The notes beneath the pieces are model-generated. The model did not search any database and was not told the origin of the DNA. It was given only the letters and a program-made list of their open reading frames with translations. DNA of 64,000 bases from Minisyncoccota bacterium (GTDB lineage Bacteria; Patescibacteriota; Minisyncoccia; Moranbacterales; GCA-2747515): contig CALDDM010000002.1 of NCBI GenBank assembly GCA_937936355.1, positions 17,156-81,155 on the forward strand. Direction: 5' to 3'. Both the position numbers and the translations under genes were made by a program. This document shows, piece after piece, positions 4,861 through 64,000 of this stretch (position 1 is the stretch's first letter; the number at the start of each line of letters is the position of its first letter).

Positions 4861-6432
4861 ATGATAGCACCAGTAGTCCTTGTAGTTCTTGATGGGTGGG
4901 GTCTTAGCAGTGATCCTGGCAATATCATTAACTCCACTCCACTCCCGACTTTTGATATCCTCAATCAGAATTATCCGATGATTGCCTTGCAGGCCTCGGG
5001 TATTTCTGTTGGCCTGCCATGGGGCGATCCAGGTAATAGTGAAGTGGGCCACATGACTATGGGAGCTGGTCGCATCATGTATCAAAGCCTTCCACGCATC
5101 TCCTTGGCAATTCAAGATGGTAGCTTTGCAAGCAATAAGGCCCTTAATAACCTTGCAACACATGTTACAGAAAAAAAGAGCGCCCTTCACATCATGGGAC
5201 TTGTAGGGGATGGTGCTGTGCATGCTAGCCGTGATCACCTCTACGCTCTTTTGAATTTTGCTAAGTCTCACAACTTTGAGGAAGTCTACGTTCACTGCTT
5301 TACTGACGGTCGTGACTCCTCACCAAAAGCCGCAGGAGACCATGTGATCACACAAATCCAAGAGGAACTCGGTCGCATTGGGATTGGCAAGATTGCCACT
5401 CTCATTGGTCGGAATTGGGCGATGGATCGTAATAACAACTGGGACCGCATCAAAAAAGCATATGATATGCTTGTCCACGGCAAAGGCTCTCTTACCAAGG
5501 ACCCTGTCGCATCGATTTCTGCGTCTTATGATGCAGGAATTACTGATGAGTTTATCGAGCCGCTCATCGTCACTGAGGACGGCACAAATCCTATTGCGCA
5601 AATCAAAGATGGCGATGGTGTTGTATTTTTCAATTTTCGTGACGATCGTGCCCGAGAGATTACCAAAGCCTTTTCACTCCCTGGTTTTGAGAAATTTGAT
5701 CGTGGACCTCAGCTTGACATCCACTTTGTTGCAATGATGGAGTATGAGAAAGATCTCCCTGTAAGCGTGGCATTTCCCCCTGAGTCTATCATCAACTCTA
5801 TTGGTCAGGTTCTCAGCGCGTATGATCGTCCTCAGCTTCGTATTGCAGAAACTGAGAAGTATGCCCATGTTACCTACTTTTTTAATTGTGGGGCTGAAGA
5901 GCCTTTCCCACTTGAAGACCACGTTCTCATCCCCTCGCCAGCCGTTGATCGTTTTGACCAAAAACCTGAGATGAGCGCCTATGGTGTAACGGATAAAATT
6001 CTCTCTACATTGAGTGAGAATAAGTATGAGTTTATACTAGTTAATTATGCCAATGCCGATATGGTAGCCCATACTGGCAATGAGTCTGCTGCGCGCGAGG
6101 CCATAAAAGTTCTTGATGTGTGCATGCACCGACTTGTGAAGGGCGTTCTTGCAACAGGTGGTCAACTCCTTATCACAGCCGATCATGGCAATGTCGAGGT
6201 TATGCATGATCCGCAGAGTGGAGCTATGGATACAAAACACAATACAAGTCCTATACCTTTGTGGCATGTGTCCCCAACAAATCATCGTCAGAAAAGTTCA
6301 GAAGAGCTTGCGACGCAGGAAAGAGAGATTCGCGGACTACTGAGCGATGTTGCCCCTACCATTCTGGATATTATGGACGTCCCTAAACCAGTTGAAATGC
6401 AAGGTGAAAGCCTTCGTGAGATCCTCAAGTAA
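4861..6432 (+). CDS. gpmI: 2,3-bisphosphoglycerate-independent phosphoglycerate mutase
   Basis: VLVVLDGWGLS...GNSEVGHMTMGAGRI, a typical iPGM N-terminus; 523 aa. Confidence 0.9.
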   Translation: MIAPVVLVVLDGWGLSSDPGNIINSTPLPTFDILNQNYPMIALQASGISVGLPWGDPGNSEVGHMTMGAGRIMYQSLPRISLAIQDGSFASNKALNNLATHVTEKKSALHIMGLVGDGAVHASRDHLYALLNFAKSHNFEEVYVHCFTDGRDSSPKAAGDHVITQIQEELGRIGIGKIATLIGRNWAMDRNNNWDRIKKAYDMLVHGKGSLTKDPVASISASYDAGITDEFIEPLIVTEDGTNPIAQIKDGDGVVFFNFRDDRAREITKAFSLPGFEKFDRGPQLDIHFVAMMEYEKDLPVSVAFPPESIINSIGQVLSAYDRPQLRIAETEKYAHVTYFFNCGAEEPFPLEDHVLIPSPAVDRFDQKPEMSAYGVTDKILSTLSENKYEFILVNYANADMVAHTGNESAAREAIKVLDVCMHRLVKGVLATGGQLLITADHGNVEVMHDPQSGAMDTKHNTSPIPLWHVSPTNHRQKSSEELATQEREIRGLLSDVAPTILDIMDVPKPVEMQGESLREILK

Positions 6433-53919: not shown

Positions 53920-54064
53920 CACAAAAGATATATTCTGCTTTACACATACAAGTTAGCTCCCCATATTGGAGTGTTTAGTTACCTGTAATACCCCTCACTT
54001 CAAAATAAAATCCCACTGTGTGTGGGATTTTATCTTTCTCATCCTTTACTTTTGTAACCCCTTG

Positions 54065-54766
54065 TTATTCCACAACTGATACTGGTAAATTCCTTCGCCC
54101 AAAGGCAAATGCCTCTGATTTTGTCACCACGTATATATCGAATTTATTTCCTTTGATTGCTCCACCACGATCTTCGCACGTATATGTTCCATAGCCCTCT
54201 ACTTTGATCCTTGTTCCAAACGGATAACTCCGCGGACATGCTATCGTATGATTTGCTTTCACGCGTTTTCCTGAGGCTGTGATCCCATCACCGCTATCTG
54301 TCTCATCAAATGCTGCTGTATACGCACTTATATTCGCAATAAATTGCCCACCGGATGCACTATCAGAGGATTGCCTGACTGGCGCAGTTATCTTTTTTGG
54401 CGTCGGTTTTGGCTTATCCTTTGCAGCTGCTGCGGCAAGCTGTGCAATCATTTTGGCTCGGGCAATGCGCGATTTACTCTGCTTGTCATCTAGATCACCT
54501 GCCTCATCGTTGCTCATGGCGCTTTCTACATTTTTCAGCGCAAGTTCTTGTATCAACTTACTTCTGCGTACTCTTGCTGGCGTGGTGCTTTCACCTACCC
54601 CATCAGAGAGGTCTATGTGCACGCCGCTTGCCTCAATGTCAAAGTACGCTAGTTGCTCAACCTCTTTGATCTGTCCGCCATACCAAACACTTTGCGCATT
54701 GCCCTCCAGGGGTAGCACGATCATCGATGTTATAATAGTAGCGTTGAGTATTTTGTTTTTAGTCAT
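54065..54766 (-). CDS. 3D-domain (RlpA/MltA-like double-psi beta-barrel) cell-wall-binding/lytic protein with a signal peptide
   Basis: C-terminus AAFDETDSGDGITASGKRVKANHTIACPRSYPFGTRIKVEGYGTYTCEDRGGAI.GNKFDIYV is the 3D-domain signature with three conserved Asp. Confidence 0.6.
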   Translation of the reverse strand: MTKNKILNATIITSMIVLPLEGNAQSVWYGGQIKEVEQLAYFDIEASGVHIDLSDGVGESTTPARVRRSKLIQELALKNVESAMSNDEAGDLDDKQSKSRIARAKMIAQLAAAAAKDKPKPTPKKITAPVRQSSDSASGGQFIANISAYTAAFDETDSGDGITASGKRVKANHTIACPRSYPFGTRIKVEGYGTYTCEDRGGAIKGNKFDIYVVTKSEAFAFGRRNLPVSVVE

Positions 54767-54996
54767 GACTTTAAGTTTTGTGGTTTTGTCTGCGTGCCAA
54801 AATTGCACACTCGTATCGTGATTACCATCTTCTTTGACACACAAAAAAATCGGCCACCCTTGGTCGATCTAAAACATCTCTATCAGCGCCATCACTATAA
54901 GGTACCTATAGCTATTACATAGCGCATGCGGATTTGTGCGTATTTCTACCTACAACTATTATAGCAAAAAAATTAGCTCTAGTCAATACACCTTTT

Positions 54997-55803
54997 ATGT
55001 CTCTCCAATCTCTTTTCTCTCGTTTTCGTCAACTCCATTTTATACTTCGCATCGTTATAGGACTTCTGTTTTTTGGTGTCTTTTACTTCCTCTGGCGTGA
55101 ACGCTTTGTCGTGACGCGACAGTTTCTTGCTCCAGAAGAGATGCTTTTTTCCAACACGCAACCCTGGGGCATCCTCCTTCGCCTCAAAGAATCTCAGAAG
55201 GGCTACACTAATCGCCAGTTCTCTGCCATCACCCTTTCTGCGCCACACACCAACACTGATCCGCGGACCCAGGATGAAATTGCAGATCTTCATGAACTAG
55301 TACGTTTACGCACACATGACGTTATTGCACGCATAGATCGTGAACGTTTCGATGTACGAAAGCTTACCATGGCGGACAAAACCTTGAGATCGCTACTTCG
55401 AGACGGAGCGCACCCACTGTCTGATGAATTGATTGATGCGGTGCTTTACGATTTCGATGCATATGTTTTGCATTTTAAGCGTATACATGACCGCGTTCGA
55501 CCTACAATCCTTGATCCATCTCTTCCGCATGCTTTTCCTGTGCCCAAGCATCCATCATATCCTAGCGGTCACAGCTCACAAGCTCACCTTATCGCTGAAA
55601 TCCTGAGCATCTTTCAACCTAAGCAGCGTGAGGCTTTTTTTGCAGATGCATGGCGCGTCGCTACTGACCGCGAGATTGCAGGCTTTCATTATCGCAGTGA
55701 TACTGTTGCGGGTCGGATTCTTGCACAGCAGTATTTCGCACTGCTTATGGAGTCAGATGATTTTCGTAGAGACCTCGCCGCTGCAAAGTCTGAGTGGGAG
55801 TAG
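54997..55803 (+). CDS. PAP2-superfamily phosphatase (membrane-anchored)
   Basis: Motifs RVRPT...PSGHSSQ...HYRSDTVAG (KxxxxxxRP / PSGH / SRxxxxxHxxxD). Confidence 0.65.
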   Translation: MSLQSLFSRFRQLHFILRIVIGLLFFGVFYFLWRERFVVTRQFLAPEEMLFSNTQPWGILLRLKESQKGYTNRQFSAITLSAPHTNTDPRTQDEIADLHELVRLRTHDVIARIDRERFDVRKLTMADKTLRSLLRDGAHPLSDELIDAVLYDFDAYVLHFKRIHDRVRPTILDPSLPHAFPVPKHPSYPSGHSSQAHLIAEILSIFQPKQREAFFADAWRVATDREIAGFHYRSDTVAGRILAQQYFALLMESDDFRRDLAAAKSEWE

Positions 55804-55995
55804 CTCGTGGCAGAACAAATAACATTGTCAGAGCGCGGAGTTACACACAGAGATTTCCTCATGCATAGTGTGCGCTGTGATATAATGAAGTGTGTCAAAA
55901 GTGTGCATTTTGTGCACGACGATTTCTGTATGATAGTTGTTACGGGGAAGTCATATAGGAACTGGTTGCAGTTTTTCAAAACCAAAAAACTCCCA

Positions 55996-58062
55996 ATGCT
56001 TACGAGATTATTCTCTTTACGCTCACCACGTCGACCTGCAATTATCTTTGCCTTATTTATAGTGTCACTTTTTGTGATGCCTTTTTATGGTGCCCCCGAT
56101 ATGACAATCCACACTTTAAATGCCTCAGCTAATAATACTGACCTAGATCTAGATCCCGGAACTATTAGTGATATAGTCGAGTGTAGACTGCGTGATGATG
56201 GTCCAATTATTGCCTGTCTTATAAACAAACTACTTTTCTTACCTGCTCAGCTTTTCTCTGTTGGCGTTTCTTTCGCGGTTAGCTTGCTGGATATATTCAC
56301 TGATCCAGTTCTCTACAATGCGCAATTTAAAAGTGAAGCCCTCTATGCTGGCTGGGGCGTAGTGCGCGATCTTTTTAATATTATCTTCATCTTTGCACTT
56401 CTTTTCAGCGCCTTTGCAACGATCTTCCAGATTCAGAAGTATCATTTGCGCAACATCCTCAAAAACGTTATCATCATGGCACTGCTGATCAATTTCTCGT
56501 GGCCGATTGCCCGCGTGATCATCGATTTCTCAAATATTCTCATGTTCTTCTTTTTGGGAGACGGTAATGGACTTCAGCTTGCAGCCCGAGTAAGTGAAGG
56601 AAAGGGCTTGCACAACATACTTCTTGCTGGGGCTGATATAAGACAATTCGGCTCCATGGGTAATGTGGTTTTGATAGATATATTTATGTTTATCTACATG
56701 ATCACGATGCTTACTGTTGCTTTTCAATTTATCATTAGATTGGTTGCTCTCCTCATGCTTATGGTCTTTGCGCCAATTGGCTTCGCTGGCGCTGCAATCC
56801 CCCGCATGGAAGGCCTATCTTCTAGTTGGTGGAGCGCTTTTCTTAAGTATTGCTTTGCTGGCCCAGTAATGATGTTCATGGTCGTACTTGCCAGCTTTAT
56901 AATGGTTGAAACAAATAAAGCAAATGAGGGTACGATCTTTGTAGCAACTAAAACTGGTGCCTTTGAAAATTTTCTAGGTAACGCAGTCGCCTTCACAGTA
57001 CCTATGGCGATTTTGTGGGGTGCAATCATCGCCTCCGGAAAGCTAGGCGATGCGGGCTCAAATTTTGTCACGAGCAAAGCAAAAAGCGCGCTCAGACGTG
57101 GTGGGGACTTTGTGACGCGCCCAGTGGTGGGTGTTGGGAAGGGTGCTGTGGGTAGCGCTACAGGTGTAGCTAAGAGAGCTGGACGCGCGTTTCCGGGCGT
57201 AGCAGCTGGGACTGGCATCATCAAAGGTGTTGGTAATAGCCTTGCCAAGAGCTCTGCAACGTCTAAGGCAAAGTTTGAAGCTCGCCAAGCAGCTGTTGCT
57301 GCAAACACACAACAACAAATGCCTGGTTTTGTGGGTGGAGATAGCAATGCAGTGGCAAAGTATGAGAAAACCGCCGCAATCAAGCGATCTTCGGAGTTCA
57401 AGGAGGCCGGCATAGGAGCCAAAGTTGCAGCTGACCAGTTCAAAAATGCTCAAGGCGTAGAAAAGCAAGCTCTTATGAGCTACATGACAAGCAAGGATGC
57501 TGTGAAAAGTGGGGAAGACCTACAACATGTTTTGACAGCTTTAGAGGTTGATCGAGTTAAAAGCCTGGAGGGTGTTACTGATCAAGCTTTTATAGATAAG
57601 ATAAATTCGGATTCACAAAAGAGTGCTCTCAAGTCTTTGGAGTCGATCGATGACTTTGCAGCAAGTCAGTTTAAAGAAGGCGATTATAAAAAGATAGCAT
57701 CTGCGTATAGCGGGTCTGATGAGACCGGCAAAGAGCTTTTGTCTGCGGTCAATAATAAGCTCCTTAGCAAGAATCGACTTGATCTTCAGCTCAGTCACGT
57801 AATTACTGATAAGCGTCAAGGTCCAGCGGCTGCAGCTGAAGTCGTGGAAAACCTCACGTCAACTCAACTGGCATCAAACGTGAAAGTGGCGCAGGTTCTC
57901 GAAGATAGTAAAGATGATCATTACCAAGAGACACTTGCTGTTGTCAGCGCAATCAACAATCAAGTCTTGTCTACACCAAAGTCTCGTGAGCAATTTGGCT
58001 TAAGGGCAGGAGCAAAGCAAAAAGATAAGCTCTCAAGCGTAGGCGTAAAAACTACTGTTTAG
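55996..58062 (+). CDS. VirB6/TrbL-like polytopic membrane protein of a type IV secretion-like system (the ORF is open from 55807; the signal-peptide start at 55996 is preferred)
   Basis: N-terminal signal, ~6-8 TM helices in the central region, long hydrophilic A/K/S-rich C-terminal tail, as in VirB6/ConG-type proteins; adjacent to VirB4. Confidence 0.45.
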   Translation: MLTRLFSLRSPRRPAIIFALFIVSLFVMPFYGAPDMTIHTLNASANNTDLDLDPGTISDIVECRLRDDGPIIACLINKLLFLPAQLFSVGVSFAVSLLDIFTDPVLYNAQFKSEALYAGWGVVRDLFNIIFIFALLFSAFATIFQIQKYHLRNILKNVIIMALLINFSWPIARVIIDFSNILMFFFLGDGNGLQLAARVSEGKGLHNILLAGADIRQFGSMGNVVLIDIFMFIYMITMLTVAFQFIIRLVALLMLMVFAPIGFAGAAIPRMEGLSSSWWSAFLKYCFAGPVMMFMVVLASFIMVETNKANEGTIFVATKTGAFENFLGNAVAFTVPMAILWGAIIASGKLGDAGSNFVTSKAKSALRRGGDFVTRPVVGVGKGAVGSATGVAKRAGRAFPGVAAGTGIIKGVGNSLAKSSATSKAKFEARQAAVAANTQQQMPGFVGGDSNAVAKYEKTAAIKRSSEFKEAGIGAKVAADQFKNAQGVEKQALMSYMTSKDAVKSGEDLQHVLTALEVDRVKSLEGVTDQAFIDKINSDSQKSALKSLESIDDFAASQFKEGDYKKIASAYSGSDETGKELLSAVNNKLLSKNRLDLQLSHVITDKRQGPAAAAEVVENLTSTQLASNVKVAQVLEDSKDDHYQETLAVVSAINNQVLSTPKSREQFGLRAGAKQKDKLSSVGVKTTV

Positions 58063-58079
58063 AATCAGAAATTGAAACT

Positions 58080-59483
58080 ATGGATATCAACTCACAATCA
58101 ATCTATCCACTTCTCGTACCATTGCGGGATGGGTCTGAGGACTTGCCTGCGGAGCTAGAGCTTAAGTGGGATAAGGTACGAGCGTTGCCTGAGCGCAATC
58201 GCTTGATTTTGCTCTCGGATGAAATCAAGGAGCTTATTCTGCGTTATTCCATTCAGCATAATCTGACAGAAAAACAAGCAGAGCATTTTTCGCGCTTGAT
58301 TCGCTCCTTTTTCTTTGGGGAGAACTCATCAGCTGAGACTGGCGTAGCGATTGGTGCCATTTTCCACCAAGACCAAGCTTTTGGTGTTGGCGTTTTGAAC
58401 GAAATCCAAGGCATATCTGCTATGCCAGCACCCGCCACTGCCGCACAAGCGAACACCCCCCCAACTCAAGTCATTCCATCTGAAATGCTTCCACTTGCAG
58501 AGGCGCGCGATAAGTATCCACAGTTGGGTCAACAGCTTGTCACCAAAGGTCGGATCATTGCGAAGCAGTTTGTCACACCCATGACGCCAACTGTTGCGCA
58601 CTGGATTAGTGCTTACGAGGCAATCGCAGGCGTGCAGAAGCATACTGCAATCGAGCGTGGTGAGTTTCTCTACCGATCCCAACCATGCAGAGGGCTTAGG
58701 GAGATCGATCGGACCAAGCTTGCACAGCTCCTCAAGGCACATGATGAGGGCACATCACTTAAGATCTCTACCGAAAAGGGTGGGATCATCTGGCAAAAGG
58801 ATTCAGCAGAAGCACAGAATCTCACACCTCAAAATCCGCAACCCGTAACGCCGACACCTGCGCAGAATCCTACTCCCGCTCCTACTTCAGTACAAACAAC
58901 CCAGCCAGTTATTGTCGCACCGAACCCACCAATCCAAGAGCTGCCTGCAACGCCCTCCCTTCAACAAATCCCTCAACAAACCGATTTACAACCTCACACT
59001 CAAGATTCCACACAAGCACCGCCACCGGCCCGACAGTCGCAGCAGATACCTCGCGCATCAAAGTCGCCACGCAGATCGTCTTCGCTGGAACCACAGCTTC
59101 ACTCTCTCCCAGATAGCCGCATAGAGAACGCGCAACCCGCCTCATCACCAGCACTTGGATCTGTGCGTAAGTCCCTTCCGAAACCTCAACCAATGCCGCA
59201 ACCCACTACACAGCCAACCAGTCGACCAGGCGTACAACACACAAATCAACAAGCGCCCGCAACACCGTCCCTTCAGCATTTTGCTCATCAACAGACTGGC
59301 ACCCAGCAACCATTACAGCGCGCGCAACCAAGCAAGCAGCAAAGCACGCAGCCACCTAAGAATCTTCCTACCACAGTCAACTTCAGTTCTGGTCAGACTC
59401 TTCCGACAGAAAAATCAGGTAACATGACGCCACATACTACCGACAAAAAACGCAACCCTTTTCACATTAATCCAATTGGATAA
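58080..59483 (+). CDS. Hypothetical protein with a P/Q/T-rich C-terminal low-complexity tail
   Basis: 467 aa; structured N-terminal ~250 aa then a PQ-rich repeat-like region. Confidence 0.4.
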   Translation: MDINSQSIYPLLVPLRDGSEDLPAELELKWDKVRALPERNRLILLSDEIKELILRYSIQHNLTEKQAEHFSRLIRSFFFGENSSAETGVAIGAIFHQDQAFGVGVLNEIQGISAMPAPATAAQANTPPTQVIPSEMLPLAEARDKYPQLGQQLVTKGRIIAKQFVTPMTPTVAHWISAYEAIAGVQKHTAIERGEFLYRSQPCRGLREIDRTKLAQLLKAHDEGTSLKISTEKGGIIWQKDSAEAQNLTPQNPQPVTPTPAQNPTPAPTSVQTTQPVIVAPNPPIQELPATPSLQQIPQQTDLQPHTQDSTQAPPPARQSQQIPRASKSPRRSSSLEPQLHSLPDSRIENAQPASSPALGSVRKSLPKPQPMPQPTTQPTSRPGVQHTNQQAPATPSLQHFAHQQTGTQQPLQRAQPSKQQSTQPPKNLPTTVNFSSGQTLPTEKSGNMTPHTTDKKRNPFHINPIG

Positions 59484-59540
59484 AGTGCTGAGGAAGCAAT
59501 GTATTAGCACTCTTATTACATATTATTCTATTGTTAGCTT

Positions 59541-60044
59541 ATGGAGGAGGTACCACAATTCATCAATACGCAGGACAAAATAGCGGGTCCATTTACGTGG
59601 AAGCAACTTGCATGGCTTGGGGGTGCTGGGATGATCCTTGCGCTTCTATGGCAGCTTCTTATTCGGCCAGTCTTCTTTGTCGTAGCTGTACCAATTGTTA
59701 TTATTGCCGGACTGCTGACATTCTTTCGTCCATATCAAATGTCATTTATTTCTTATCTTGGTCACTTGTTGGCCTACCTCTTCAAGCCACGTACATACCT
59801 CTGGCAACGGGAAGTCATCACACATGACGATGATGTTCAAGAGAATCAACCACAAGAAGTCCAACACTCTCAAAAGAGTGTCTCTCTTGAGGATGTGCAT
59901 GCCCTAACTGAGGCACTTGATAGTCATGGGTCTGTTCGCAACGAACGTTTGCAGGCAATTATTGCACAGAATCTTTCTCAGTCTGCGCATAAAAACAGCT
60001 TAGGTCTTGGTCGTACAAAGAAACCTGAGAACAAAGAGGCGTAG
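59541..60044 (+). CDS. Small 2-TM membrane protein, possible VirB3/ConD-like T4SS component
   Basis: Two adjacent TM helices (LAWLGGAGMILALLWQLLI; VFFVVAVPIVIIAGLLTFF) directly upstream of VirB4-like genes. Confidence 0.35.
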   Translation: MEEVPQFINTQDKIAGPFTWKQLAWLGGAGMILALLWQLLIRPVFFVVAVPIVIIAGLLTFFRPYQMSFISYLGHLLAYLFKPRTYLWQREVITHDDDVQENQPQEVQHSQKSVSLEDVHALTEALDSHGSVRNERLQAIIAQNLSQSAHKNSLGLGRTKKPENKEA

Positions 60045-60163
60045 ACTAACTGTCATTGTACGCTTCTTTTTATACACATGTCCTTTGTGTGCAAAATTTA
60101 GTACAATGTATGTAGTAGATTGAGAATGTTATATACGATTACAAATATTACTAGTGAAACATT

Positions 60164-60844
60164 ATGGAAAGTCTTGGTAGAGCGCAATCCTCCGCAAACA
60201 CACTAAACTATGTGGATATACAATCTGTAGAAGATGGTGTTGTTATACTCAAAAATGGAACCTTGCGCGCTGTCATCCTTGTCTCCTCTATCAACTTTGA
60301 TCTCAAATCTTCCGTTGAACAGGAAGCGATCATTGGAAGTTATCAGAACTTTCTCAACTCGCTTGATTTTCCTGTGCAGATTGTTGTGAGCTCTCGTAAG
60401 CTCAACATGTCATCTTATCTCTCGTTGCTGAGCTCCGCTGAAAAAGCCCAGCGCAATGAGCTCTTACGTATCCAAACGACAGAGTATCGCTCCTTTGTGA
60501 AGAATCTTGCTGACGTTACAAATATTATGAGTAAGTTTTTTTATGTCGTGGTGCCGTTTGCCCCTGTAGAGAATGCGAATGTTGGTGTCTTAAGTAAAAT
60601 TTCTAGCCTGGTTAACCCACAGGGTGCCCTCAAAGCACGTGGTGAACTCCTCGAGACGTACAAAAGCCAACTCTGGCAACGTGTTGACCATGTTGCAGCC
60701 GCGCTTGAGGGGACTGGACTGAATTTTACAGCTCTCACAACTGACGAGTTAATCGAGCTCTACTACAATGCATATAATCCATCTGTGTACTCACAATCCG
60801 GTGTAAAGGATGTCTCTCAATCAGAACTTGCAACACGCAGTTAA
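60164..60844 (+). CDS. T4SS-associated protein resembling the N-terminal domain of Gram-positive VirB4 (ConE/TcpF-type); possibly a split VirB4 N-domain
   Basis: YVDIQSVEDGVVILKNGTLRAVILVSSINFDLKSSVEQEAIIGSYQNFLNSLDFPVQI matches the start of ConE-like ATPases; combined length with the next ORF (226+604) equals a full-size VirB4. Confidence 0.4.
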   Translation: MESLGRAQSSANTLNYVDIQSVEDGVVILKNGTLRAVILVSSINFDLKSSVEQEAIIGSYQNFLNSLDFPVQIVVSSRKLNMSSYLSLLSSAEKAQRNELLRIQTTEYRSFVKNLADVTNIMSKFFYVVVPFAPVENANVGVLSKISSLVNPQGALKARGELLETYKSQLWQRVDHVAAALEGTGLNFTALTTDELIELYYNAYNPSVYSQSGVKDVSQSELATRS

Positions 60845-60893
60845 TCTCGTTCACTACAGCTTGTTGTAGAAAATATTACCAACCACATAAAAC

Positions 60894-62708
60894 ATGCTTG
60901 TGCTATTTGGAAAAAAGAAAAAAAAAGAAAGTAGTCTCGAGTCGGATATGATGCAAGATGAGAAGGTTTATCAGCAGGGCATTGCCACAGTTCGTGGCTT
61001 AATCGCTCCGAGCGCATTTCAGATTCAAGCCTCCCAGATCCAAGTGGGTGACACAGTTGCGACAACTCTCTTTGTCATTGCGTACCCACGCTACCTGAGC
61101 AATAATTGGTTTTCTCCGATTATTAACATTGACTTTCCAATGGATATAGCAATGTTTATCCATCCCGCTGATTCTGGTATCGTTCTCAAAGATCTCCGCA
61201 AACAAGCAACGCGACTAGAGTCTCAAATCTCTATGGAAGCACGAGCTGGTAAAGTACGCGACCCCAAGCTTGAGGCAGCAATTGCGAATGTTGAAAATCT
61301 TCGCAACAGTCTCCAGCAGGGGACTGAACGATTCTTTCGTTTTGGACTCTATATCACCTTGTATGCAGCTGACCAGAAAGAACTCCGCAAGCAAAAGAAT
61401 GAAATTATTACCATCCTAGAGGCACAGCTCATCTATGCAAAGTCTGCGACCCTTCGTATGGACAAAGCATTTATCTCTACCTTGCCGCTTGCAGATGATA
61501 CGCTCAATATTGGCACAAACCTTAATACTGGTCCTCTTTCTACGACATTTCCTTTTGTCAGTGCAAGCCTTTCCTCTAACGATGGGATCTTGTATGGTGT
61601 CAATCGACATAACAACAGCCTCATACTCTTTGACCGCTTCAACCTCGAGAATGCAAATATGACCGTTTTTGCAAAATCTGGAGCGGGGAAGAGTTACTTT
61701 GTCAAACTTGAGATTTTGCGTTCAATGATGTTTGGAACGAGTGTGATCGTTATTGACCCAGAGAATGAGTACAAACACCTTTGTCAGACAATTGGCGGCT
61801 CGTTTATCAATATATCGCTCGGCTCAAAGGTGCACATCAATCCATTTGAACTTCCCGATATACCAGAAGGGGAGCGACCAGAGGATGTCTTTCGCAATGC
61901 AATTGCAAACCTCATCGGACTCATGCATATCATGCTGGGATCACTTAATGCAGAAGACGATACAATCATCGAACGCGCTATACGTGAAGCCTACGCTGTG
62001 CGTGATATTTCAGAGACACGTGACTTTTCAAAAATTGCACATGAGGAATTCCCCACAATGACCGATCTCAAATCAATCCTTGAGAACATGGAGGGTGGAA
62101 ACCGCCTTGCACTACAACTAGAGAAGTACACCGAAGGTGTTTTTGCAAATTTTCTCGATCAGCCCACCAACATCATTGTTGATAATCAAATTATTGTCTT
62201 TAATATACGTGATCTCGAAGAAGAGCTCCGACCAATCGCGATGTACCTGATCCTTCAGTTTATATGGAATGAAATGCGGGTTAATATGAAAAAGCGCCTG
62301 GTCATTGTTGATGAGGCGTGGCTCATGATGCAAAATGAAGATGCTGCGTCGTTTATCTTTGGTATCGCTAAGCGTTGCCGCAAATACTACACAGGCCTCA
62401 CGACGATCACACAGGACATTTCCGATTTTCTCACGAGTCGCTATGGAAAACCAATCATCACTAATTCGTCCCTTCAACTCCTTCTTAAGCAGTCCCCAGC
62501 ATCAGTAGACCTTCTCAAAGACACTTTTTATCTGACAGACCATGAGAAGTTCCTCCTCCTTGAGAGTGGTGTAGGTGAGGGAATCTTTTTTGCTGGCCCA
62601 AAGCATGCTGCTATTAAAGTTATTGCATCCTACAGCGAGGACCAAATCATCACCTCTGACCCCAAGCAACTCCTTGCCATCAAAGAAGTTCGTGAGTCCC
62701 TTGAGTAA
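60894..62708 (+). CDS. VirB4/ConE-like type IV secretion ATPase
   Basis: YPRYLSNNWFSPII...; Walker A FAKSGAGKSYFVKLEI; Walker B LVIVDEAWLMM; 604 aa. Confidence 0.8.
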   Translation: MLVLFGKKKKKESSLESDMMQDEKVYQQGIATVRGLIAPSAFQIQASQIQVGDTVATTLFVIAYPRYLSNNWFSPIINIDFPMDIAMFIHPADSGIVLKDLRKQATRLESQISMEARAGKVRDPKLEAAIANVENLRNSLQQGTERFFRFGLYITLYAADQKELRKQKNEIITILEAQLIYAKSATLRMDKAFISTLPLADDTLNIGTNLNTGPLSTTFPFVSASLSSNDGILYGVNRHNNSLILFDRFNLENANMTVFAKSGAGKSYFVKLEILRSMMFGTSVIVIDPENEYKHLCQTIGGSFINISLGSKVHINPFELPDIPEGERPEDVFRNAIANLIGLMHIMLGSLNAEDDTIIERAIREAYAVRDISETRDFSKIAHEEFPTMTDLKSILENMEGGNRLALQLEKYTEGVFANFLDQPTNIIVDNQIIVFNIRDLEEELRPIAMYLILQFIWNEMRVNMKKRLVIVDEAWLMMQNEDAASFIFGIAKRCRKYYTGLTTITQDISDFLTSRYGKPIITNSSLQLLLKQSPASVDLLKDTFYLTDHEKFLLLESGVGEGIFFAGPKHAAIKVIASYSEDQIITSDPKQLLAIKEVRESLE

Positions 62709-62754
62709 TCCATGGAGACTTCTGCGTTTGGATCTAATACGCTAGCGTACTGAT

Positions 62755-63315
62755 ATGGCTACACCCACCGCAACAACACTTGGCAAACCACTCCGACGCA
62801 TCACATCCAGTACATCTCGCAATGCTGTACACCGCCTGCGCAAAGCAACACAAGAGCACGTCACTCGCAACCCCGTACTTGACCAAGAAATACTCGTGGC
62901 GAAACAGCACGCCAAAGATACTATACGGAATATAAAAAGCGAGTCTGATATGCCTTTTTGGATTTTGATTTTTAGCTCACTCTTTGTTACGTTTATTGGC
63001 TTTATAAGTCTTATACCTGTTGTAGGGTGGGGGTTTTATATGGTTATCAAGCTCTGTAATATGATCCTTGGAATCATGGCGATCAGCTACGCGAATCACA
63101 TGACGCATAGCAGGCTCAAGAGCCATGGTCGTTTGTTCACGCGTATTATCATTCTCTCGCTTACAATGCTCTTTGGCTTACTTTTTCCACCAGTAAATGC
63201 AATACTCTTGAATATGCCAACACTTTTGACCGAGGCTTGGATTCTTTGGAGTGCCCGCCGTCATCGCAAAGAGGCAATAGCAGAACTTGAGAAGACCCTT
63301 ACCCTCTCTGCATAG
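62755..63315 (+). CDS. Membrane hypothetical protein (T4SS-neighbourhood)
   Basis: 4 TM helices; 186 aa. Confidence 0.4.
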   Translation: MATPTATTLGKPLRRITSSTSRNAVHRLRKATQEHVTRNPVLDQEILVAKQHAKDTIRNIKSESDMPFWILIFSSLFVTFIGFISLIPVVGWGFYMVIKLCNMILGIMAISYANHMTHSRLKSHGRLFTRIIILSLTMLFGLLFPPVNAILLNMPTLLTEAWILWSARRHRKEAIAELEKTLTLSA

Positions 63316-63383
63316 AGTTCATTTACTCTCAGGATATAATGCTCTCACGCCTTGTCATGATATAATTGTGAAAAATATCCTTA

Positions 63384-64000
63384 TGCTTAACTCTCCTTCT
63401 CAGGCGGTGAGACAATATATTATTTCTCTCGCCATCCTCATTCTCTCGTTGGGTCTTTATATCCTTTTTCCTACGGAAGGTATGTTGCAGTCTATTATCG
63501 TCCTCCTGTCTTTTTTGTGTGTTCTTCCCGCTCTTTACATCCGCTTCGTTCTTCATAGAAAATGGTCTTCTTTCATACCCCCGCTTGTGCACTTTTCAGC
63601 CGGAAAAGTTGCAGCCCTTCTTGGTGCGAGTCTTTTGTGTGCAATCTGTATGATTATTATCGCTTTCTTGCCGTATAACGCAGGCTACATCGTTCAAATG
63701 CGTGATGTTTTTTCTAGTTTTCGTGGTTTTTTGCTTTATCAAGCTGTCTTTACTGTACCGCTCTTACTTGTGATTACCTTCTTCTGTGTGCGTCTCACGC
63801 ATCTCATGGATTTTGGAGGACGTGCTCATAGCATCATAGCAATCATCTTGCTTTCTGTTGTCATCCAAATTTCGACGCCGCTGCCACTTTTGAGCATAGC
63901 CCCCCTTGCGATCACTGTTCTCATACTTGCACGCTTCAAGATTTTAAATGAATACATAGTCTTTCTTGTTTTTTTTCTTGGTCTTGCCTGCTACGATGCT
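63384..64000 (+). CDS. Polytopic membrane protein, partial (runs off the window end)
   Basis: Open frame from the ATG at 63384 to the window end with 6 or more hydrophobic helices (manual translation); not in the ORF track because it has no stop. Confidence 0.35.

What the first reader, a model, noticed from the sequence alone, without database searches (positions are those of the whole stretch)
60164..60960. VirB4 appears split into an N-domain ORF and an ATPase ORF; A6GA9 tract at the start of the ATPase ORF
The 226-aa ORF resembles the extreme N-terminal domain of ConE/TcpF-type VirB4. The following 604-aa ORF begins at the conserved YPR region. Together they equal a full-length VirB4 (~830 aa). 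They are in different frames, separated by ~48 nt with stops in two frames, and two compensating shifts would be needed to fuse them, so a genuine split is more likely than a single error. The ATPase ORF starts with MLVLFGKKKKKESS, encoded by ggaaaaaagaaaaaaaaagaaag. An A9 run in the first 15 codons is a classic slipped-strand site that could make VirB4 expression phase-variable.
Basis: partly seen in the sequence, partly recalled or inferred. Interest (0 to 1): 0.55.

Follow-up and report, generated by a model that had tools for sequence, protein, structure and literature searches.

The report
Naturally split VirB4 secretion ATPase
The type IV secretion motor VirB4 really is encoded as two separate genes here, but this two-gene layout is the conserved, already published norm in these ultra-small bacteria and in some Gram-positive plasmids, and the run of nine A's is most likely a by-product of a conserved lysine-rich tail, not a switch.

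Summary
ORF1 (60164-60844, 226 aa) and ORF2 (60894-62708, 604 aa) lie in different frames, 49 nt apart, and A6GA9 sits at 60911-60926.

ORF1 is a stand-alone TrsD / "TraC-like" (PF26593) protein. Its predicted fold matches VirB4 (TrwK), and it aligns with the N-terminal part of full-length VirB4 models. ORF2 covers the rest of VirB4 and scores above the curated cut-off of the CD1110 family.

The split is not an error or decay:
- All 120 closest ORF1 homologues are 213-249 aa.
- 84 of 85 distinct related loci are split, with every frame offset and 55-890 nt between the ORF1 stop and a conserved motif near the start of the ATPase.
- One 797-aa fused relative is colinear with ORF1 plus ORF2.
- The same layout occurs in Bacillota megaplasmids and in S. 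aureus pSK41 (TrsC-TrsD-TrsE).

The pairing was published in 2025 for Patescibacteria (PMC12102498), so it is already known.

The phase-variation idea is not supported. The tract encodes a basic tail (M-x-F-G/S-K-K-x-K) that is conserved as far as pSK41. A-runs of 7-9 are common there and always in frame. The closest relatives have interrupted tracts. No population data exist, so slippage is not strictly excluded.

The parts
59541..60044 (+). PrgI-family (VirB3-like) small membrane protein, 167 aa, immediately upstream of the split VirB4
   Evidence: Pfam PF12666 PrgI, E 9.3e-11, above cut-off. The same gene sits directly upstream in the orthologous loci L001, L004 and L005, in the fused locus L092 and in the C. 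perfringens plasmid locus L008.
60164..60844 (+). ORF1: stand-alone N-terminal module of VirB4 (TrsD-like / Pfam PF26593 'TraC-like'), 226 aa
   Evidence: Precomputed PF26593 hit on the identical protein P0001 and on all 120 best homologues, which are 213-249 aa. NCBIfam hits fall on the N-termini of VirB4 models (NF045975 positions 99-233, E 1.2e-9; NF045971 positions 10-104, E 7.7e-6) and on TrsD/TraD NF041427 (E 1e-7). In the Foldseek search with the AF2 model, the top 14 PDB hits are all TrwK/VirB4. ORF1 is 44% identical to residues 5-216 of the fused 797-aa P0191.
60845..60893 (.). 49-nt intergenic spacer, with stops in the ORF1 frame and the ORF2 frame
   Evidence: The region is poorly conserved with the 86%-identical orthologue L001. 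The spacing varies widely among orthologues.
60894..62708 (+). ORF2: VirB4 remainder, 604 aa. It holds the rest of the N-terminal domain plus the C-terminal ATPase. Walker A SGAGKSY is at 61677-61697 and Walker B IVDEAW at 62304-62321. The true start may be the conserved GTG at 60900.
   Evidence: NCBIfam NF045971 (CD1110 family), 352 bits against a cut-off of 325, model positions 179-729 of 752. Pfam P-loop_TraG, AAA_10, DUF87 and CagE_TrbE_VirB. PDB 4AG5 VirB4 C-terminal domain, E 1.5e-50. Motif coordinates. The GTG is conserved in L089, L090 and L001, whereas the ATG at 60894 is not.
60911..60926 (+). A6GA9 tract, encoding K7-K11 within the basic N-terminal tail MLVLFGKKKKKESS
   Evidence: The tail is conserved as protein across orthologues and in pSK41 TrsE. 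The homopolymer is not conserved: L089/L090 have A6TA5CA3 and L001 has A6GA4CA3TA3.
60948..60953 (+). ATGATG (Met18-Met19), a possible internal or re-initiation start. It is conserved in the close relatives.
   Evidence: conserved in all four sequences aligned. A JGI gene call for the orthologue starts here (585 aa). A -1 slip in A9 ends at a UGA overlapping the second ATG.
55807..58062 (+). 751-aa ORF upstream in the same + strand run as the secretion genes. It is a candidate VirB6-like channel subunit; this is inferred, not shown.
   Evidence: No Pfam hit here. In the closed genome, the gene at the corresponding position (658 aa, L005) has only a weak TrbL PF04610 hit. The paper reports VirB6 homologues near virB4 in Patescibacteria (PMC12102498).

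Best explanation
This is the chromosomal type IV secretion locus of a Patescibacteria bacterium; the closest relatives found are labelled Candidatus Moraniibacteriota, Pacebacteria or Paceibacterota. VirB4 is encoded as two cistrons by design. The first is a 226-aa TrsD-like protein that corresponds to the extreme N-terminal subdomain of VirB4. The second is a 604-aa protein that carries the rest of the N-terminal domain and the ATPase domain. The gene order PrgI(VirB3-like) - TrsD-like - ATPase mirrors the N-to-C order of VirB3 and VirB4. The likely mechanism is inferred, not shown: the two polypeptides assemble non-covalently. By analogy with the VirB4 N-terminal domain in the R388 structure (general knowledge), the TrsD-like module would contact PrgI and the membrane. 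The ATPase half would form the hexameric motor. The A6GA9 tract is the coding sequence of a conserved basic N-terminal tail (M-x-F-G/S-K-K-x-K) of the ATPase half. Its homopolymeric form in this genome is a lineage-specific synonymous or near-synonymous accident, not a conserved switch.
For: Identity of the parts. ORF1 and ORF2 cover complementary, non-overlapping parts of the CD1110 VirB4 model (positions 10-104 and 179-729). They are colinear with the fused 797-aa P0191: residues 5-216 match ORF1 at 44% identity and residues 226-797 match ORF2 at 50%. Conservation of the split: all 120 best homologues are 213-249 aa. Of the best 150 cluster representatives from 1.84 billion proteins, only one is full length. 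84 of 85 distinct loci are split, frame offsets 0/1/2 number 27/36/22, and the distance from the ORF1 stop to the conserved YQxG motif is 55-890 nt. The split loci include the closed genomes CP175956.1 and CP064994.1. ORF1 is under constraint: 44 invariant columns in 42 sequences with 65% mean column identity. The same architecture is found in Bacillota plasmids and in pSK41, where a 135-aa protein, TrsD (227 aa) and a 672-aa ATPase follow one another. Literature: TrsD is a remote homologue of the VirB4 N-terminus, is the most abundant T4SS component in Patescibacteria, lies next to virB4 in 1,664 cases, and is essential in Ca. S. epibionticum ML1 (PMC12102498). Tract: the Lys-rich tail is conserved. 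A-runs of at least 7, 8 and 9 occur in 27, 14 and 3 of 81 distinct leaders, all in frame. The closest relatives have interrupted tracts.
Against: No experiment or complex model shows that the two proteins assemble. The AF2 model of ORF1 is only moderate (pLDDT 68), and the Foldseek E-values are modest (6e-4 to 2.5e-2), although all top hits are VirB4. Direct similarity to pSK41 TrsD is weak: hhalign probability 10% with E 0.003, and the NCBIfam TrsD score is 32 bits against a cut-off of 200. A9 is the longest A run in the window and lies within the length range where slippage is known to occur, so some frameshifted product is plausible.
Confidence: 0.88

Rival explanations
1. The A9 tract is a slipped-strand contingency locus. 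Gain or loss of one A switches the ATPase half of VirB4, and hence the secretion system, on and off.
For: A9 lies within the first 11 codons and is the longest A run in the window. A +1 or -1 change truncates the reading frame after 13 or 18 codons. Homopolymers of this length can slip during replication or transcription (general knowledge).
Against: The tract encodes a Lys-rich tail that is conserved from Patescibacteria to pSK41. With 54% AAA usage, three AAA codons in a row are expected in about 16% of cases. The closest relatives carry interrupted tracts. All 81 distinct leaders are in frame. After a -1 slip the stop UGA overlaps AUG 60951, which would allow re-initiation. The fused relative P0191/L092 lacks the tail altogether. 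T4SS genes are essential for epibiotic growth in the one Patescibacteria member tested (PMC12102498).
Confidence: 0.06
2. The split is an artefact or recent decay: a sequencing or assembly indel, or a pseudogenised full-length virB4.
For: The two ORFs are in different frames and together add up to a typical VirB4 length.
Against: Two compensating shifts would be needed to fuse the ORFs. The split is present in 84 of 85 loci from independent assemblies, including closed genomes, with all frame offsets and spacers of up to hundreds of nucleotides. ORF1 length and sequence are conserved.
Confidence: 0.01
3. The lysine-encoding A run is a translational or transcriptional attenuator. Ribosome sliding or RNA polymerase slippage on poly(A) would lower ATPase output relative to the TrsD-like protein without an on/off switch.
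For: A-runs of 7-9 recur in the ATPase leaders of many orthologues. Consecutive AAA Lys codons are known to cause ribosome sliding, and A9 or longer to cause transcriptional slippage (general knowledge, not tested here).
Against: Several orthologues encode the same lysines with mixed AAG/AAA codons and no long run, for example L009 with K6 and a longest run of A5. This argues that the protein, not the nucleotide run, is what is selected. No expression data exist.
Confidence: 0.05

Closest known systems
TrsD + VirB4 pairs of the Patescibacteria chromosomal T4SS (Quinonero-Coronel et al. 2025, Microb Genom, PMC12102498)
   Same: A TrsD-like gene sits immediately upstream of virB4 and a PrgI/VirB3-like gene lies nearby. 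The context is chromosomal, and no relaxase was noticed in the part of the window examined. The closest homologues come from Moraniibacteriota and Paceibacteria MAGs.
   Different: Nothing substantive; this locus is one more instance. The paper describes TrsD as a remote homologue of the VirB4 N-terminus with no assigned function. In the passages I retrieved it does not describe VirB4 as 'split' (the word does not occur in the paper) or mention the basic tail of the ATPase half.
TrsC-TrsD-TrsE of S. aureus pSK41/pGO1 (MPF_FATA, pGO1 subclass)
   Same: The three-gene layout and sizes match: 135 / 227 / 672 aa in pSK41 against 167 / 226 / 604 aa here. The ATPase starts with a similar basic tail, MIMAFLKKKKQEQ.
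   Different: Sequence similarity of ORF1 to pSK41 TrsD is marginal. pSK41 is a conjugative plasmid with a relaxase and a VirD4 coupling protein, whereas this locus is chromosomal among housekeeping genes.
Full-length monoderm VirB4 (CD1110 family NF045971; ConE/PrgJ-type)
   Same: ORF2 passes the CD1110 cut-off. ORF1 plus ORF2 cover the model end to end.
   Different: Those proteins are single polypeptides. Here the first ~175 model positions are supplied by a separate gene.
TrwK/VirB4 of plasmid R388 (PDB 7O41-7O43, 8RTB, 8RTD)
   Same: The ORF1 model matches TrwK structurally. The ORF2 ATPase domain matches it by sequence (E 1e-8).
   Different: It belongs to a diderm MPF_T system, is a single 823-aa chain, and shares only about 12-16% identity with ORF1.

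Membership tests
VirB4 T4SS ATPase (NCBIfam NF045971, CD1110 family) | Whole-protein score at or above the curated cut-off (325 bits) | tested here: met
   ORF2 scores 352.3 bits, E 5.3e-105.
VirB4 T4SS ATPase (NCBIfam NF045971, CD1110 family) | Walker A and Walker B motifs, and a C-terminal domain homologous to a solved VirB4 C-terminal domain | tested here: met
   SGAGKSY at residues 262-268 and IVDEAW at 471-476. PDB 4AG5, E 1.5e-50.
VirB4 T4SS ATPase (NCBIfam NF045971, CD1110 family) | A single polypeptide covering the whole model, including the N-terminal ~175 positions | tested here: not met
   ORF2 covers model positions 179-729 only. Positions 10-104 are matched by ORF1.
TrsD/TraD conjugative transfer protein (NCBIfam NF041427) | Score at or above the curated cut-off (200 bits) over the full model | tested here: not met
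   32 bits, E 1e-7, model positions 22-68 of 201 only. hhalign against pSK41 TrsD gives E 0.003 and probability 10%.
TrsD/TraD conjugative transfer protein (NCBIfam NF041427) | A ~200-230 aa protein encoded directly upstream of a short (~600-670 aa) VirB4, with remote homology to the VirB4 N-terminus | tested here: met
   TrsD homologues in Patescibacteria were assigned with the MPF_FATA TrsD profile in PMC12102498.
Pfam PF26593 'TraC-like' | Significant match to the family model | tested here: met
   A precomputed PF26593.2 hit is listed for P0001 (100% identical to ORF1) and for all 120 best homologues and in gene tables. My own scan of the local Pfam copy did not return the family, presumably because that copy lacks it.
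Simple-sequence-repeat phase-variable (contingency) gene | A homopolymer tract in the 5' coding region whose length change shifts the frame | tested here: met
   A9 at 60918-60926. A change of one A in either direction gives early stops.
Simple-sequence-repeat phase-variable (contingency) gene | Tract-length polymorphism, including out-of-frame alleles, among reads or strains | not testable with these tools
   There are no reads, and only one contig of this species is on record. The metagenome scan found only one relative.
Simple-sequence-repeat phase-variable (contingency) gene | The tract is maintained as an uninterrupted repeat in related lineages, beyond what the coding sequence requires | tested here: not met
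   The tract is interrupted in L089, L090 and L001. All 81 distinct leaders are in frame, and run length varies with AAA/AAG/AAC choice.

The most novel reading that the evidence does not exclude
The basic tail M-x-F-G/S-K-K-x-K at the N-terminus of the ATPase half is a hallmark of split-type (TrsD + TrsE) VirB4. It may act as the docking peptide that replaces the covalent link to the N-terminal module. It is absent at the junction of the one fused relative. In lineages such as this one, where the tail is encoded by a long A run, slippage could make ATPase dosage tunable.
Probability: 0.1. Interest if true: 0.4.

Novelty: already known. Interest (0 to 1): 0.15.

Why it matters
The result mainly guards against mis-annotation. 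The 226-aa 'hypothetical protein' and the 'short' VirB4 should be read as two halves of one functional unit, not as a pseudogene or an assembly error. The T4SS of Patescibacteria is essential for their epibiotic lifestyle (PMC12102498, citing Wang et al. 2023), so knowing that its motor is a two-chain protein is relevant for structural and genetic work. That point is already in the literature. The one fresh detail is the conserved Lys-rich tail of the ATPase half, which is shared with pSK41 TrsE and missing in the fused relative. It is a small, testable lead.

Tried and rejected
- **Sequence search of ORF1 against PDB chains:** nothing significant. The link to VirB4 needed the structure prediction and fold search.
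- **Exact-protein look-ups for more contigs of this species:** ORF1 (P0001) and ORF2 gave no record. Only a >=90%-identical relative was found (L089/L090).
- **Metagenome scan with a pattern bracketing the tract:** it returned only that same relative (L091 is the same contig as L089), so tract-length polymorphism could not be assessed.
- **Literature search for the phrase 'split VirB4':** no papers. The phenomenon is described under the name TrsD.
- **tblastn of ORF1 against plasmids:** it found Bacillota and Actinomycetota megaplasmid homologues among the 25 of 29 matching records listed, but no Staphylococcus. pSK41 had to be fetched by accession, and its TrsD is only marginally similar.
- **Shine-Dalgarno motifs to fix the ORF2 start:** this genome has almost none, so the start (ATG 60894, GTG 60900 or ATG 60948) rests on conservation only.
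- **Rfam and tandem-repeat scans:** these found only tRNAs (Rfam, whole window) and no tandem repeats in 54000-64000.
- **Complex model of ORF1 + ORF2:** not attempted. The tool predicts single chains and accepts only window or database sequences.
Full report
**1. Observation**

The ORFs are as described. ORF1 runs 60164-60844 on the + strand (226 aa) and ORF2 runs 60894-62708 on the + strand (604 aa). ORF2 is in the +1 frame relative to ORF1, and the spacer is 49 nt.

The ORF1 stop lies upstream of two stops in the ORF2 frame, and only the third frame is open across the gap. One frameshift therefore cannot join the ORFs; two would be needed.

The tract is A6 (60911-60916), G, A9 (60918-60926), and it encodes the lysines of MLVLFGKKKKKESS. 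A9 is the longest A run in the window; the only other 9-mer is a T9 at 14262.

**2. What the two ORFs are**

ORF2 is a VirB4 ATPase.
- It scores 352 bits against the NCBIfam CD1110-family model, above the cut-off of 325, but covers only model positions 179-729 of 752.
- It has the Pfam domains P-loop_TraG, AAA_10, DUF87 and the end of CagE_TrbE_VirB.
- It carries Walker A and Walker B motifs.
- It matches the solved VirB4 C-terminal domain 4AG5 at E 1.5e-50.

ORF1 has no significant hit in the local Pfam copy. The identical database protein P0001 and all its homologues carry a precomputed PF26593 'TraC-like' annotation.

NCBIfam places ORF1 on the N-termini of VirB4 models: NF045975 positions 99-233 (E 1.2e-9), NF045971 positions 10-104 (E 7.7e-6) and TIGR00929 positions 6-75. 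It also matches the TrsD/TraD family at E 1e-7, below that family's cut-off.

An AlphaFold2 model built from 42 homologues has pLDDT 68. In a Foldseek search of the PDB, its top 14 hits are all TrwK/VirB4 chains of the R388 T4SS, with probability 0.99-1.00 and E 6e-4 to 2.5e-2. The next hit has E 0.48.

ORF1 and ORF2 therefore cover complementary, non-overlapping parts of VirB4.

**3. Colinearity with a fused relative**

A search of 1.84 billion cluster representatives with ORF1 gave 2,192 hits at E <= 1e-3. Of the best 150, nearly all are 156-443 aa and one is 797 aa (P0191).

P0191 residues 5-216 align with ORF1 residues 10-213 at 44% identity. P0191 residues 226-797 align with ORF2 residues 29-602 at 50% identity. 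It lies in a MAG contig directly after a PrgI gene and close to dnaA (L092).

This shows that ORF1 + ORF2 equals one VirB4. It also shows that a fused version is rare.

**4. The split is the conserved state**

- All 120 best homologues of ORF1 are 213-249 aa.
- Orthologous loci at 86%, 64% and 67% identity (L001, L004, L005) have the same layout: PrgI, then a 225-230 aa gene, then a 585-623 aa ATPase. L005 comes from the closed genome CP175956.1.
- A scan of one genome per GTDB species returned 530 relatives, and the best 80 loci were kept.
The one fused locus is L092, which I fetched on purpose. Frame offsets 0/1/2 number 27/36/22. The distance from the ORF1 stop to the conserved YQxG motif of the ATPase ranges from 55 to 890 nt.

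That pattern fits two independent cistrons. It does not fit a frameshift site or an assembly artefact. ORF1 is also under constraint, with 44 invariant columns in 42 sequences.

**5. Beyond Patescibacteria**

tblastn of ORF1 against plasmids found stand-alone homologues, at 22-30% identity among the records listed, in Bacillota and Actinomycetota megaplasmids. In Pontibacillus and in C. perfringens pJFP838A, the homologue sits directly upstream of a 621-641 aa VirB4-like ATPase. In pJFP838A it also follows a PrgI gene.

S. aureus pSK41 has the same layout: a 135-aa protein, TrsD (227 aa) and a 672-aa DUF87 ATPase (TrsE). Direct similarity of ORF1 to pSK41 TrsD is marginal, however (hhalign E 0.003, probability 10%).

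**6. Literature**

Quinonero-Coronel et al. 2025 (PMC12102498) make the following points:
- It is the most abundant T4SS component they detected in Patescibacteria, with 2,272 homologues, of which 1,664 are associated with virB4.
- It is present in only the pGO1 subclass of MPF_FATA.
- It has no assigned function.
- It is essential in Ca. S. epibionticum ML1.

The arrangement found here is therefore published. The window itself is chromosomal: genes for an S1-domain protein, guanylate kinase, a PP-loop protein, FtsH, tRNAs and a uracil-DNA glycosylase lie upstream. This matches the paper's picture of a chromosomal T4SS that mostly lacks a relaxase.

**7. The A tract**

The N-terminus of the ATPase half is a conserved basic tail:

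| Source | N-terminal sequence |
|---|---|
| window | MLVLFGKKKKKESS |
| L001 | VLFGKKKTNKEP |
| L005 | MFSKKQKETKK |
| L004 | MLFSKKQKKQDQ |
| several more distant loci (e.g. L037, L070) | MFGINKNKK |
| C. perfringens plasmid (L008) | MKFGFKKKNQKNN |
| pSK41 TrsE | MIMAFLKKKKQEQ |

The fused P0191 has no such tail at its junction.

Because the tail is Lys-rich, A runs are frequent in these leaders. Among 81 distinct leaders the longest A run is at least 7 in 27, at least 8 in 14 and exactly 9 in 3. All are in frame.

The homopolymer itself is not conserved.
- The closest relatives, L089 and L090 (ORF1 in the same 90% cluster), read A6TA5CA3, encoding KNKNKE.
- L001 reads A6GA4CA3TA3.
- L009 encodes six lysines with no run longer than A5.

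AAA makes up 54% of Lys codons in the window, so three AAA codons in a row are unremarkable. These same relatives lack the ATG at 60894 but keep the GTG at 60900 and the ATGATG at 60948, so the exact start is uncertain. The genome has almost no Shine-Dalgarno motifs to settle it.

A -1 slip would end at a UGA that overlaps AUG 60951. A +1 slip would end after 13 codons, upstream of the ATGATG. Re-initiation could therefore still give an ATPase lacking only the tail.

No reads or conspecific contigs could be found, so slippage is not excluded. Nothing comparative supports a switch.

**8. Verdict**

The 'genuine split' reading is supported but already known, as TrsD + VirB4. The 'phase-variable' reading is unsupported.

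The most likely mechanism is non-covalent assembly of a two-chain VirB4 next to PrgI. This is inferred from homology and synteny and is not shown. Interest is low. The only small new lead is the conserved Lys-rich tail specific to split-type ATPase halves.

Noticed in passing
window 60894-60947; L093:26584-26625; L008 (ATPase gene starting at 5929): The ATPase half of split-type VirB4 starts with a conserved basic tail, M-x-F-G/S-K-K-x-K. It is shared by Patescibacteria, C. perfringens pJFP838A and S. aureus pSK41 TrsE, and it is absent at the junction of the single fused relative (P0191/L092). I found no mention of it in the passages of the Patescibacteria T4SS paper that I read.
   Followed up: partly
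L031, L035, L038, L046, L052, L057, L059, L064, L069, L082 (start of the ATPase gene): In a subset of more distant Moraniibacteriota loci, the ATPase half carries a long N-terminal extension of 80-300 aa. The extension is rich in Pro, Ala and Val, begins M-D/E-R/K-I-V-F-R-D-N-K-G-P, and stands in place of the short Lys-rich tail.
   Followed up: no
window 58080-59483 (+): A 467-aa ORF lies between the large 751-aa ORF and PrgI. Its C-terminal half is very rich in Pro, Gln and Thr (low complexity) and it has no Pfam hit. Genes of 401-518 aa occupy the same position in L001 and L005.
   Followed up: no
window, whole: Almost none of the 41 long ORFs examined has a Shine-Dalgarno-like motif upstream. 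Leaders are A/T-rich instead, for example A8 directly before the ATG of the minus-strand ORF 13639-14262, which accounts for the T9 at 14262.
   Followed up: partly
window 1-64000: There is a strong strand asymmetry: T 20,442 against A 15,553 on the + strand, and negative GC skew through most of the window. A block of five tRNA genes lies at 16695-17568 on the minus strand.
   Followed up: no
L092 (GCA_964615945.1 contig CAZTUR010000004.1): The one fused TraC-like + VirB4 gene (797 aa) lies about 2.4 kb from dnaA, dnaN, rnpA and yidC. This fits the published remark that Patescibacteria T4SS genes often sit near the replication origin.
   Followed up: no
L014, L018, L020, L021, L029 and others (record titles): Many public MAGs carrying this typical Patescibacteria locus are labelled 'uncultured Bdellovibrionales', 'Micavibrio' or 'Pseudobdellovibrionaceae'. 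These are probably taxonomic mislabels in the deposited records.
   Followed up: no
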